A DNA stretch of 64,000 nt from Escherichia phage HMD-6. Position 1 is the stretch's first letter. Each line of letters starts with the position of its first letter. A model generated the notes under the pieces. That model searched no databases, was not told the origin of the DNA, and was given only the letters and a program-made list of their open reading frames with translations. The position numbers were made by a program, and so were the translations under genes. This document shows positions 61,490 through 63,237 of this stretch, one piece after another. The stretch lies in sequence record PQ505080.1; one strand, written 5' to 3'.

Positions 61490-61774
61490 ATGGTAGTAGA
61501 ACCGACAAAAACATTTACCTCCATGACTATTCCTGTTATTATGCAGGTAGAGTGCGTTCAGGTGTCCCAAGTGTGGCCAGGTACTAAAATTCCAACAGGG
61601 CCTGATTTCTTCCAGGTTGGAAAGGTGTACAATGTATGGAAGGCACCGGATTGTTACCCTTTCATTAAAGATGACCGTGGAATGTTATGGTATCTGGGAA
61701 ATGATTTGACACTACATCTTGGAAATGCTATTATTGCAGTGTTCCGGCTCAACAAGAAGGAGGCAGATCAATGA
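61490..61774 (+). CDS. small paralog family protein (KDDxG...W motif)
   Basis: Track ORF from 61400 overlaps polymerase exon 2; ATG 61490 has a GAGGAG RBS. Motif 'FIKDDRGMLWYLGN'. Confidence 0.5.
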   Translation: MVVEPTKTFTSMTIPVIMQVECVQVSQVWPGTKIPTGPDFFQVGKVYNVWKAPDCYPFIKDDRGMLWYLGNDLTLHLGNAIIAVFRLNKKEADQ

Positions 61775-61998
61775 CAACTTTGGTTAAAGCTACGTTTGTA
61801 GAAGAAAAGATGACAGGCTTGTCATTCTTTAAAGAAGGAAAGACCTACAAGGTTTATTACGATAAGGATCGCGGAAACAATATGATCGAAGACGAGGAAG
61901 GTATTTCCTGGTATATCTCTCACCTGACAAATGGTGAGTATCATATCTATGGAACCACCCTACTTGCCAAGTTTGTAGCTGTTGAAGAGGCTCTATGA
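61771..61998 (+). CDS. small paralog family protein (KDDxG...W motif)
   Basis: 75 aa; 'MIEDEEGISWYISHLTNGEYHIYG'; GAAGGAGG RBS. Confidence 0.5.
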   Translation: MTTLVKATFVEEKMTGLSFFKEGKTYKVYYDKDRGNNMIEDEEGISWYISHLTNGEYHIYGTTLLAKFVAVEEAL

Positions 61999-62189
61999 AA
62001 GTAAAGTATCTGGCTGAAGGTATGAGTAGGTATTTTACCCTTGGAGAAGAGTATTGGCCCTTTACGGAAAATGGAGATGTATACGTGAAGGATGACCAAG
62101 GTGTGCCGTGGTTTCTGCACCATAATGGGTTGGGGTATTCCATCTACTGCGGTGCAGTGAACAACACAACCCTTGCAGAGTTTGTCTAG
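61995..62189 (+). CDS. small paralog family protein (KDDxG...W motif)
   Basis: 64 aa; 'YVKDDQGVPWFLHHNGLGYSIYCG'. Confidence 0.5.
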   Translation: MKVKYLAEGMSRYFTLGEEYWPFTENGDVYVKDDQGVPWFLHHNGLGYSIYCGAVNNTTLAEFV

Positions 62190-62199
62190 AGGAGGCAGA

Positions 62200-62571
62200 A
62201 TGTTAGTAAAAGGTACCCACACAGTCAAGCAACGTATTGAAGTTGAGATTGATGATTGTGAGCTGAAGCATATCTTACGGTCGTGCTCCAACGTTTTGCT
62301 CCTCAGTATTCTCCAGGAGCGAGCGGAGAACGAGTTCTTAAATGCACTGGCAGGCCGTCCTGGTGACTTCTGTGTACGTAAGCGTGAAGATCATAAGTCA
62401 TGGTTGTGGGAAATCGATGCCGACTGGGATTACCACAAAAATGAGGGCATAGATGAGCCTATTCGTGAATTGACAGATAAAGAGATTCAGATGTACAATG
62501 AAGTTTGTCATTGGGCAAAACGCCAACAAATTTACCTCGACCCTGTGTGGATGATTGAAAATAGCCATTGA
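62200..62571 (+). CDS. hypothetical protein
   Basis: ATG at 62200 with GAGGAGG RBS (track ORF from TTG at 62173). Confidence 0.5.
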   Translation: MLVKGTHTVKQRIEVEIDDCELKHILRSCSNVLLLSILQERAENEFLNALAGRPGDFCVRKREDHKSWLWEIDADWDYHKNEGIDEPIRELTDKEIQMYNEVCHWAKRQQIYLDPVWMIENSH

Positions 62572-62596
62572 CAAGAAGTAAGATTGGATATAAGAT
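62568..62596 (+). promoter_or_regulatory. sigma70-like promoter TTGACA-N17-TAAGAT
   Basis: -35 overlaps the stop of the upstream gene; -10 at 62591-62596; 51 nt upstream of the ATG at 62647. Confidence 0.45.
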
Positions 62597-62646
62597 GCTT
62601 CACACAAACAGAGAGTTGATTTTAAATAATTGAGGAGACTGCTAAG

Positions 62647-62901
62647 ATGCAAATCACTTTGAAGCCAGAATGCGTTGCAAATGACCGAGCTTTTAAAGAT
62701 TGCACAATCGGTGCAATTTATGAAGCAGAGTTTTGTGATAACCCTCTGGTAAAAGCTCTTCTGGAAGAAGGGACCTATTTATCACAAGAAGAACTTGATG
62801 AGTTGGAAAACTCAGCCCAGTGCCTTACCTTTAAAGATGATGAAGGAGATTCTGTCTGGTGCACTGTTAACGAAGTAGTTTTTGTAAAACCTGAGCATTA
62901 A
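62647..62901 (+). CDS. small paralog family protein
   Basis: 84 aa; 'DRAFKDCTIGAIYEAEF ... TFKDDEGDSVWCTVNEV'; paralog of the 62965 gene. Confidence 0.5.
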   Translation: MQITLKPECVANDRAFKDCTIGAIYEAEFCDNPLVKALLEEGTYLSQEELDELENSAQCLTFKDDEGDSVWCTVNEVVFVKPEH

Positions 62902-62964
62902 TACTTGACAACATCGACAGGGCCTAATACAATGGCTCTATCAAAACGGAAGGGGACCACAACA

Positions 62965-63237
62965 ATGACCAAACAGTATCAACGAATTAAAGCCAAGGTT
63001 AAGCCAGATTACTTAGAGAAGGACTCTGCTTTTCGGGACTGCACCGCAGACAAAGTTTACACAGGTGCTGTTCTGTTAAACGATAAATTTGAAGTGGATG
63101 GGCTTGGCAAAGAGGCTACTATCAAGGATGACCAGGGAGATTATGTTTGTTGCACCACCAGAGAGCTGGAGGTATTAGAATACTTCGGTGAAATCTTCAC
63201 CTCTCTTGATGATTACTTAGATGACGAGGAAGAGTGA
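62965..63237 (+). CDS. small paralog family protein
   Basis: Track ORF from 62905; ATG 62965 has a GGAAGGGG RBS; 'DSAFRDCTADKVYTGAV ... TIKDDQGDYVCCTTREL'. Confidence 0.45.
   Translation: MTKQYQRIKAKVKPDYLEKDSAFRDCTADKVYTGAVLLNDKFEVDGLGKEATIKDDQGDYVCCTTRELEVLEYFGEIFTSLDDYLDDEEE

What the first reader, a model, noticed from the sequence alone, without database searches (positions are those of the whole stretch)
61490..63237. Tandem family of five small paralogous genes downstream of the DNA polymerase
Five ORFs of 64-94 aa (61490, 61771, 61995, 62647, 62965) share a 'KDD-x-G ... W/Y' core, and the last two also share 'AF(K/R)DCT'. Tandem paralog arrays of small proteins in early regions are typical of rapidly diversifying host-takeover or anti-defence factors, and one has its own TTGACA-N17-TAAGAT promoter. 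Three small minus-strand proteins (41221-41976) may be distant relatives.
Basis: seen in the sequence. Interest (0 to 1): 0.55.

Follow-up and report, generated by a model that had tools for sequence, protein, structure and literature searches.

The report
Two small beta-barrel gene families
The five small genes after the DNA polymerase of this rV5-like E. coli phage are real. They form a triplet and a pair, not one proven family of five, and the triplet is predicted to fold like Gp54 of phage Bas11, a small phage protein that a bacterial immune sensor binds directly.

Summary
The window comes from a Vequintavirus (rV5/FV3-like, 98% identical to vB_EcoM_SYGMH1). All five ORFs are real genes: dN/dS is 0.02-0.20, and about 115 GenBank genomes carry them.

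They split into two well-supported paralogue groups, separated by an unrelated gene at 62200-62571:
- **Family A:** g1 61490, g2 61771, g3 61995.
- **Family B:** g4 62647, g5 62965.

No A-B pair is significantly similar. With more diverse profiles the A-B comparison becomes suggestive (hhalign P about 1e-3, probability 23%, controls at background). The motif KDD.G occurs only in these genes in the whole window. The minus-strand trio is unrelated.

Family A also belongs to an unnamed phage module (FxTxGKxY...DDxGxxW). This module occurs as repeats in larger phage proteins and in the gene that starts at 63949.

Family B looks like a genus-restricted SH3-like barrel. Each of its genes sits behind its own conserved sigma-70-type promoter.

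A divergent relative carries seven family A copies. The function is untested. The most likely role is small protein-binding accessory factors that act on host or host-defence proteins.

The parts
61490..61774 (+). g1, family A member (94 aa). It has a 21-residue insertion in the beta1-beta2 loop relative to g2.
   Evidence: ORF with GAGAGGAG ribosome-binding site. phrog_12922. SW z 11.1 to g2 and 5.4 to g3. dN/dS 0.018. Alignment.
61771..61998 (+). g2, family A member (75 aa). Its start overlaps the g1 stop (ATGA).
61995..62189 (+). g3, family A member (64 aa). Its start overlaps the g2 stop.
   Evidence: phrog_12802. SW z 9.2 to g2. Module HMM E 4e-6. dN/dS 0.11.
61706..61734 (+). Promoter-like site inside g1 (TTGACA-17-TATTAT with a TG extension), upstream of g2.
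   Evidence: Consensus scan, 11 of 12. The equivalent site is listed as P224 in Table S4 of the rV5 paper. Not tested experimentally.
62200..62571 (+). gX, an unrelated 123-aa gene that splits the array.
   Evidence: phrog_6273. No similarity to either family. dN/dS 0.08.
62568..62596 (+). Sigma-70-type promoter of g4 (TTGACA-17-TAAGAT).
   Evidence: Hexamers conserved in 7 genomes while the spacer varies. Annotated as P220 in rV5.
62647..62901 (+). g4, family B member (84 aa).
   Evidence: phrog_12544, with a cross-hit to phrog_11936. SW z 11.6 to g5. dN/dS 0.105.
62905..62933 (+). Sigma-70-type promoter of g5 (TTGACA-17-TACAAT).
   Evidence: 11 of 12. Conserved as TTGACA-17-TA(C/T)AAT in 7 genomes.
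62965..63237 (+). g5, family B member (90 aa) with an acidic C-terminal tail.
63949..64000 (+). Start of g8, cut off by the end of the window (orthologue of FV3_00197, 81 aa). A further member of the same beta-barrel module superfamily.
   Evidence: phrog_4927, E 1.6e-26. hhalign against the repeat-module profile gives 91%, E 1e-6. Weak similarity to B, P 0.0017.

Best explanation
The interval is part of the accessory-gene cluster that follows the replication genes of an rV5/FV3-like Vequintavirus. It holds two tandemly duplicated families of small, soluble, acidic beta-barrel proteins.

**Family A (g1-g3).** The three genes are translationally coupled. They are read from polA transcripts or from promoter-like sites inside the cluster.

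**Family B (g4, g5).** Each gene is expressed from its own conserved sigma-70-type promoter, that is, by unmodified host RNA polymerase.

**What is shown about family A.**
- It belongs to a widespread but unnamed phage module with the signature F-x-(T)-x-G-K-x-Y ... D-D-x-G-x-x-W.
- It is predicted to adopt the rare six-stranded barrel of Gp54 of phage Bas11.
- The residues conserved among paralogues (F, G, Y, D, G, W, F) look like fold determinants.
- The differences lie in the loops, above all the beta1-beta2 loop. In Gp54 that loop refolds to clamp the CapRel sensor.
- Copy number varies between lineages.

**What is inferred.** The barrel is a scaffold for protein-protein binding. Each paralogue binds a host or host-defence protein during early to middle infection. 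Like Gp54, these proteins are candidates both to interfere with host immunity and to be sensed by it.

Family B is probably a divergent offshoot of the same superfamily with a similar role, but that link is only suggestive.
For: **Real genes.**
- dN/dS is 0.018-0.20 across seven orthologue sets.
- The genes are present in 115 phage records, with g4 and g5 always together.

**Two families.**
- SW shuffle tests, PHROG cross-hits and window-wide HMM scans all agree.

**Fold.**
- The g2 model has pLDDT 87.7 and pTM 0.75.
- The best, non-significant, hhalign alignment puts family A's F..G and G..W on F21..G24 and G40..W43 of Gp54. G24D and W43* are CapRel escape mutations.

**Module superfamily.**
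- The family A profile finds the repeat proteins P0047-P0049 at E 9e-7 to 3e-4 in 1.84 billion proteins.
- hhalign of the repeat units against A gives 96%, E 1e-9. g8 against the units gives 91%.

**Divergence and copy number.**
- The L009 relative has seven A copies and two B copies.
- There the small genes are 44-73% identical, against 90-96% for the flanking genes.

**Promoters.**
-.

**Biology of Gp54.**
- It is small and non-essential, binds the CapRelSJ46 antitoxin domain directly, and its own function is unknown (PMC11578894).
Against: - No function has been tested for any of these genes.
- Family A does not match Pfam PF25180 (Gp54). hhalign against the Gp54 family gives 0.3-0.7% probability, so the link rests on a predicted structure.
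- Gp54's own benefit to its phage is unknown, so the analogy transfers little mechanism.
- g1 is as constrained as the polymerase (dN/dS 0.018) and is co-transcribed with it. That would also fit a core replication-linked role.
- Within the genus all five genes are under purifying selection, not diversifying selection.
- The family B model has only moderate confidence (pLDDT 75) and no specific structural neighbour.
Confidence: 0.5

Rival explanations
1. One superfamily. All five genes, plus g8 downstream, descend from a single ancestral beta-barrel gene. Family B would then be a strongly diverged branch with an insertion between strands 2 and 3. This rival concerns ancestry and is compatible with the functional explanation above.
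For: - hhalign of A (10 paralogues) against B (4 distinct paralogues) gives P 8.8e-4 over 45 columns, with beta1, T-x-G-x-x-Y and DDxG in register.
- Controls stay low: column-shuffle null mean 9.1, sd 1.9, max 16.5, against the observed 22.9. Reversed and unrelated real families score 14.2 or below.
- B against the repeat units gives P 8e-4. B against g8 gives P 1.7e-3.
- KDD.G occurs nowhere else in the window.
- The two AlphaFold2 models have the same order of secondary structure elements.
Against: - All six A-B pairs are at chance.
- HHalign probability is only 15-25%.
- HMM searches rank g4 and g5 just below significance (E 0.3-2.8).
- A and B share no PHROG hit.
- DDxG in a beta-hairpin turn could be convergent.
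Confidence: 0.5
2. Replisome accessory proteins. g1-g3 would be small subunits or adaptors of the phage DNA polymerase / primase-helicase machinery, which would explain their position and coupling to polA.
For: - g1 starts 49 nt after polA exon 2 with no intergenic promoter, and g1-g2-g3 have overlapping stop and start codons.
- g1 has dN/dS 0.018, like primase-helicase (0.018) and polymerase (0.032).
- Gp54-type barrels resemble the SH3 domain of RecD.
Against: - Copy number varies from 3 to 7, and an Ead/Ea22-like gene is inserted between the g1 and g2 orthologues in a relative whose polymerase is 90% identical.
- g2 is only 44% identical in that relative.
- The same module occurs in phages with unrelated replication systems (a phi29-like contig, and Bas11).
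- No similarity to any known replisome factor was found.
Confidence: 0.15
3. Ligand- or nucleotide-binding, or structural, domains. The module would be a binding domain for nucleotides or nucleic acid, or a virion component, rather than a host-protein binder.
For: - In P0049 two copies of the module are fused to DUF3310, and several PHROGs annotated 'nucleotide kinase' cover it.
- P0048 has a weak hit to a PHROG named 'virion structural protein'.
Against: - These are annotations of fusion partners, not of the module itself.
- No gp219-gp224 names appear in the supplementary files of the rV5 paper that are held as text; these include the virion mass-spectrometry table. This is weak negative evidence.
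- The genes lie in the non-late transcription unit described for rV5.
Confidence: 0.1
4. Chance ORFs or untranslated sequence.
For: None beyond their small size and the lack of annotation.
Against: - dN/dS is 0.02-0.20 while dS is 0.26-0.51.
- Ribosome-binding sites are present.
- Each ORF matches its own PHROG at E of 1e-48 or lower.
- The ORFs are intact in 115 genomes.
Confidence: 0.01

Closest known systems
Gp54 of Escherichia phage Bas11 (JohannLBurckhardt). PDB 9AXB, complex 9ERV; Pfam PF25180 'Phage antiviral trigger protein Gp54'. Zhang et al., Nature 2024 (PMC11578894).
   Same: - Size is similar: 64-94 aa against 66 aa.
- F..G before strand 2 and G..W at the strand 3-4 hairpin are in the same places.
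- Both are small accessory genes sitting among other small genes of a virulent coliphage.
   Different: - There is no significant sequence similarity (hhalign 0.3-0.7%; no PF25180 hit).
- Gp54 lacks the DDxG turn and the conserved Y.
- Gp54 is a single gene in a Drexlerviridae siphovirus. Here there are three (up to seven) tandem paralogues in a Vequintavirus myovirus.
- Binding to CapRel is untested for these proteins.
Unnamed phage beta-barrel repeat module (PHROGs 3523, 4927, 16833, 3249 and others; proteins P0047, P0048, P0049; FV3_00197 / rV5 gp211)
   Same: - Shared sequence signature FxTxGKEYxV ... (I/V)xDDxG.
- The profile match to family A is significant (hhalign 96%, E 1e-9; library E 9e-7 to 3e-4).
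- All members are phage proteins of unknown function.
   Different: - In those proteins the module occurs as 2-5 tandem repeats within one polypeptide, or fused to DUF3310. Here each gene encodes one module.
- No Pfam model covers it.
SH3-like / KOW / Tudor small beta-barrels

Membership tests
Pfam PF25180 Gp54 (phage antiviral trigger protein) | Sequence match to the family profile above the gathering score | tested here: not met
   None of g1-g5 hits any Pfam family at E <= 1, whereas Gp54 itself scores 116 bits. hhalign of A against the Gp54 family gives probability 0.3-0.7%. With the Gp54 HMM, g2 is the best of the 392 window ORFs, but only at E 0.27.
Pfam PF25180 Gp54 (phage antiviral trigger protein) | Six-stranded beta-barrel with a prominent beta1-beta2 loop (fold of 9AXB) | tested here: met
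Pfam PF25180 Gp54 (phage antiviral trigger protein) | Direct binding to, and activation of, CapRelSJ46 | not testable with these tools
   This needs co-expression toxicity assays, ITC, or complex prediction. Even close Gp54 homologues from other phages do not trigger CapRelSJ46.
Phage FxTxGKEYxV...DDxG beta-barrel module superfamily (unnamed; PHROGs 3523/4927/16833) | Significant profile match to the module | tested here: met
   Met for family A and for g8:
- A profile against the 1.84-billion library finds P0047, P0048 and P0049 at E 8.8e-7, 2.1e-4 and 2.7e-4.
- The unit HMM hits g2, g3 and g1 at E 4e-9, 4e-6 and 3e-4 among the window ORFs.
- hhalign of the units against A gives 96%. g8 against the units gives 91%.

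For family B the match is only P 8e-4, probability 24.5%, which is inconclusive.
   Within the groups z is 5.4-11.6. The cross pairs have z from -0.6 to 1.9. Profile against profile gave 1% with shallow alignments, then P 8.8e-4 and 23% with diverse ones. Controls were at background.
   SW z is 3.05 or below, uncorrected. They fall in different PHROGs with no cross-hits. HMM scans and hhalign scores of 8.6-12.1 are at background.
SH3-like small barrels (for family B) | Specific structural match to an SH3/KOW/Tudor domain | tested here: inconclusive

The most novel reading that the evidence does not exclude
The Gp54-type six-stranded barrel may not be a rare oddity. It could be the structural core of a large, so far unnamed superfamily of small phage accessory proteins (FxxGxxY...DDxGxxW) that serves as a diversifiable binding scaffold. 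On this reading, the Vequintavirus array (3 to 7 family A copies, the family B pair and g8) is a set of paralogues that each engage a different host or immune protein. Some inhibit defences and some are sensed by CapRel-like sensors. Duplication and loop divergence would then be the phage's way to keep the function while escaping recognition.
Probability: 0.15. Interest if true: 0.7.

Novelty: new variant of a known kind. Interest (0 to 1): 0.42.

Why it matters
Gp54 of Bas11 is one of the few small phage proteins shown to be bound directly by a bacterial immune sensor. Its fold was described as very rare, and its own function is unknown.

This analysis finds the same fold, predicted with good confidence, in a tandem paralogue array of an unrelated and well-studied group of therapeutic and typing coliphages (rV5-like, BASEL Bas48-52). 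It also ties that array by sequence to a repeat module present in many phages.

That gives a set of natural variants on which two questions can be tested: what this scaffold does for the phage, and how immune sensors discriminate between its members. It also gives names and boundaries to about six 'hypothetical protein' genes carried by more than 100 sequenced phages.

If the proteins turn out to be ordinary accessory genes with no host target, the result is only a better annotation.

Tried and rejected
**Searches that found nothing useful**
- Pfam scan of all eight genes of the cluster: nothing for g1-g5.
- Sequence search of the PDB with the family A profile and with g3: only chance hits. 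One was a two-component-regulator propeller repeat that shares the D-x-x-G-x-x-W hairpin motif.
- Word-indexed homologue searches with g2 and g5: only relatives of at least 79% and at least 73% identity.
- tblastn of g2 and g5 against 50,697 phage records at E <= 1: only Vequintavirus.
- IMG/VR scans with both family alignments: two close contigs each.
- GTDB genome scan: none.
- Literature search on Vequintavirus transcription: no functional data on these genes. The rV5 genome paper mentions no paralogues.

**Links tested and rejected**
- Minus-strand trio as relatives: rejected.
- hhalign of B against the Gp54 family: nothing.
- Metal-binding site for B: considered and rejected. Only two cysteines are conserved between g4 and g5.
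- DNA mimicry for the acidic family B proteins (pI 4.1-4.3): considered, but the acidic tail of g5 is not conserved in the L009 orthologue, and all the neighbouring genes are equally acidic.

**Artefacts**
- The Rfam snR75 hit at 63204-63279 is below the gathering score and is taken as chance.
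Full report
**What the window is.** The region 61400-63940 matches 117 phage records at 80-98% DNA identity. Nearly all are Escherichia phages of the genus Vequintavirus (rV5, FV3; best hit vB_EcoM_SYGMH1 at 98.2%). In FV3 and rV5 every gene of the interval is annotated 'hypothetical protein'. Upstream lie a primase-helicase (56198-58276) and a family A DNA polymerase.

| Gene | Coordinates | Length |
|---|---|---|
| g1 | 61490-61774 | 94 aa |
| g2 | 61771-61998 | 75 aa |
| g3 | 61995-62189 | 64 aa |
| g4 | 62647-62901 | 84 aa |
| g5 | 62965-63237 | 90 aa |

- Each has a purine-rich ribosome-binding site. The g1/g2 and g2/g3 stop and start codons overlap.
- An unrelated 123-aa gene, gX (62200-62571, phrog_6273), lies between g3 and g4, so the array is not contiguous.

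**Are they genes?** Yes.
- Across seven orthologue sets from related genomes, dN/dS is 0.018 (g1), 0.20 (g2), 0.11 (g3), 0.105 (g4) and 0.14 (g5), with dS of 0.26-0.51. For comparison, polymerase is 0.032 and primase-helicase 0.018.
- tblastn finds g2 in 115 phage records. It finds g5 in 115 records with two places each, the second being g4. All are Vequintavirus, and nothing else matches at E <= 1.
- Word-indexed searches of 5.8 billion proteins return only relatives of at least 79% (g2) or at least 73% (g5) identity.

**One family or two?**
- *Pairwise tests.* Smith-Waterman scores against 2000 shuffles give z of 11.1 (g1-g2), 9.2 (g2-g3), 5.4 (g1-g3) and 11.6 (g4-g5). All six cross pairs give z between -0.6 and 1.9.
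- *PHROG cross-hits.* These follow the same split.
- *Window scans.* HMMs of each group find only their own members among the 392 ORFs of the window.
- *First profile test.* With shallow alignments, hhalign of A against B gives 1% probability over 14 columns.
- *Result so far.* The secure result is a triplet (family A) and a pair (family B).

**A deeper link between A and B.** A deeper link cannot be dismissed.
- KDD.G occurs four times in the 41,860 residues of all window ORFs, and all four are in g1, g3, g4 and g5.
- More diverse alignments became available from a divergent relative (L009, see below). With them, hhalign of A (10 paralogues) against B gives P 8.8e-4, probability 23%, over 45 columns. 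Strand 1, T-x-G-x-x-Y and DDxG are in register.
- Three hundred column-shuffled versions of B give a mean score of 9.1, sd 1.9 and a maximum of 16.5, against the observed 22.9.
- The reversed alignment scores 12.8. Four unrelated real families from the same cluster score 7.4-14.2.
- B also matches the repeat-module profile (P 8e-4) and g8 (P 1.7e-3).
- I put common ancestry of A and B at about one half.

**The minus-strand trio.** The three minus-strand proteins (41221-41985) are at background in every test.

**Structure of family A.**
- AlphaFold2 on g2, with an alignment of the three paralogues and g2 orthologues, gives pLDDT 87.7 and pTM 0.75. The model has six strands and a loop with a short helix between strands 1 and 2.

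**What is known about Gp54.**
- It is a 66-aa protein, non-essential in Bas11, and its function for the phage is unknown.
- It binds the antitoxin domain of the CapRelSJ46 defence protein and activates it.
- On binding, the barrel opens and the beta1-beta2 loop becomes a strand that clamps the sensor.

**Sequence relation of family A to Gp54.** None is detectable.
- Family A has no Pfam hit. Gp54 is PF25180.
- hhalign gives 0.3-0.7% probability.
- The best alignment nevertheless places family A's invariant F20..G23 and G44..W47 on Gp54's F21..G24 and G40..W43. G24D and W43* are CapRel escape mutations in Bas11.
- The claim is therefore 'same fold', not 'member of PF25180'.

**A wider sequence family.**
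- A full HMMER search of 1.84 billion representatives with the family A profile finds only nine proteins. They are the g1, g2 and g3 types, two divergent relatives (P0045, P0046) and three larger phage proteins, P0047, P0048 and P0049.
- The larger proteins contain 2-5 tandem copies of a module of about 70 residues, (G)D-x-(I/L)-K-C ... F-(F/W)-T-x-G-K-E-Y-x-V ... (I/V)-x-D-D-x-G-D.
- P0049 has two copies fused to DUF3310 and sits in a phi29-like contig.
- A profile built only from these 11 repeat units matches family A at hhalign 96%, E 1e-9. It hits g2, g3 and g1 among the window ORFs at E 4e-9, 4e-6 and 3e-4.
- The same profile matches the gene that begins at 63949 and runs off the window (g8; FV3_00197, rV5 gp211, phrog_4927) at 91%, E 1e-6.
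- Several small proteins of Bas11 also hit the module HMMs, for example bas11_0048 at E 2e-5.
- No Pfam model covers the module.

**Family B.**
- The g5 model is of moderate confidence (pLDDT 74.9). The order of its elements is like that of g2, with an added C-terminal helix.
- Foldseek against BFVD returns only the g5 and g4 orthologues.
- g4 and g5 share K-P..., D-x-A-F-(K/R)-D-C-T, Y, and D-D-x-G-D-x-V-x-C-T. g4 carries an insertion of about 15 residues.
- Only two cysteines are conserved, so a metal site is unlikely.

**Expression signals.**
A second site, TTGACA-N17-TACAAT, lies at 62905-62933 in front of g5.
- In seven related genomes both pairs of hexamers are conserved while the spacers vary.
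- rV5 annotates the first site as P220. It also lists a site inside g1, equivalent to 61706-61734 here, as P224.
- Seven of the 17 plus-strand sites of this type in the whole 64-kb window lie between 61256 and 63949.
- The rV5 paper places these genes in a non-late transcription unit that has host-type promoters.

**Evolutionary dynamics.** A 136.8-kb phage contig in an NCBI assembly (L009) is a divergent relative.
- Its primase-helicase, polymerase and g7 are 93%, 90% and 96% identical to the window's.
- The small genes are much less similar: g1 73%, g3 69%, gX 70%, g4 66%, g6 55%, g2 44% and g5 44%.
- It carries seven family A genes. Two of them sit in gaps left by the gene caller. It also has an Ead/Ea22-like gene inserted between the g1 and g2 orthologues.
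- Across ten distinct family A paralogues only F20, Y26, D41 and W47 are invariant. G23, G44 and F68 are nearly so.
- These residues probably form the core and turns of the barrel. That is an inference, because model coordinates could not be inspected.
- Paralogues and orthologues differ mostly in the beta1-beta2 and beta2-beta3 loops. g1 has a 21-residue insertion in the former.
- So the genes are conserved within the genus, but fast-evolving and variable in copy number between lineages.

**Interpretation.**
- *Shown:* two paralogue families of real, small, acidic, soluble proteins (pI 4.1-6.5); a confident Gp54-type fold prediction for family A; membership of A and g8 in a widespread phage module; dedicated host-type promoters for g4 and g5.
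- *Inferred:* the barrel is a binding scaffold, and the paralogues bind host or host-defence proteins. The analogy with Gp54 makes them candidates for triggers or inhibitors of immunity.
- *Main alternative for family A:* a replication-linked role, suggested by position, coupling and the strong constraint on g1. Against it stand the variable copy number and the occurrence of the module in phages with unrelated replication systems.
- Nothing here tests function.

**Verdict.** The anti-defence reading is plausible by analogy and remains untested. The new information is the structural link to Gp54 of Bas11 and the definition of the module.

Noticed in passing
window 60759-61086 (+): The DNA polymerase gene is interrupted by a 328-nt group I intron with no homing endonuclease. 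Rfam RF00028 matches 60749-61036 at 75.6 bits, E 1.4e-18. Exon 1 ends ...IIYYH at 60758 and exon 2 starts DEYQLQ at 61087. The junction was fixed by comparison with the uninterrupted 2778-nt polymerase gene of phage S127 BCL3. FV3 and L009 carry an HNH endonuclease gene at this place. A6-1, S127 BCL3, YN3 and B9-1 have no intron. The rV5 paper describes introns only in the terminase gene.
   Followed up: yes
window 63949-64000 (+), continuing beyond the window; L001:6550-6795: The gene after g7 (orthologue of FV3_00197, 81 aa, phrog_4927) is a further member of the FxTxGKEYxV...DDxGD module superfamily. It has 'IIDDDGDPITC', which resembles 'IKDDQGDYVCC' of family B. It may bridge families A and B.
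   Followed up: partly
L009 (NCBI GCA_012894635.1 contig AATLQU010000010.1) 4930-7352: A divergent rV5-like phage contig carries seven family A paralogues, two of them not called as genes (6280-6507 and 7098-7352). An Ead/Ea22-like 200-aa gene and a 63-aa gene are inserted between the g1 and g2 orthologues.
   Followed up: partly
window 37417-37794 (-): A 125-aa ORF beginning MSKVKFVRF...HFTPGKEYEADV is the best non-member hit of the module and family A profiles (superfamily HMM E 0.043, hhalign score 17.5). It may be another, more remote, relative.
   Followed up: partly
window 41221-41985 (-): The three small minus-strand proteins are unrelated to the five genes. They are weakly similar to one another (m1-m2 z 4.25, m2-m3 z 3.25), so they may be a separate old paralogue set.
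   Followed up: partly
window 63237-63638 (+): g6 (133 aa, phrog_8284) is the best non-member hit of the family B profile (HMM E 0.36; hhalign 14.2; SW g4-g6 z 3.45). It shares 'CTTR' with g5. This is too weak to call.
   Followed up: partly
window 61256-63949 (+): Seven of the 17 plus-strand TTGAC(A/G)-N16-18-TAnnnT sites in the 64-kb window are concentrated in these 2.7 kb. Several lie inside coding sequence (61256, 61706, 62470, 63280).
   Followed up: partly
window 63610-63930 (+): g7 matches Pfam DUF7238 (E 3.7e-7). It is the most conserved small gene of the cluster, at 96% identity in L009. Its start overlaps the end of g6 by 29 nt.
   Followed up: no
L008 (Bas11, MZ501085.1) 15579-15944 (-), 25217-25654, 23148-23339: Bas11 itself encodes several small proteins that hit the module profiles: bas11_0048 at E 2e-5, bas11_0079 at 6e-4 and bas11_0071 at 1e-3. 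bas11_0048 lies about 2 kb from gene 54.
   Followed up: partly
phage records MG0656xx: Sixteen records named 'Campylobacter phage' with host Campylobacter jejuni carry this E. coli Vequintavirus region at about 89% identity. The host labels of these records look doubtful.
   Followed up: no
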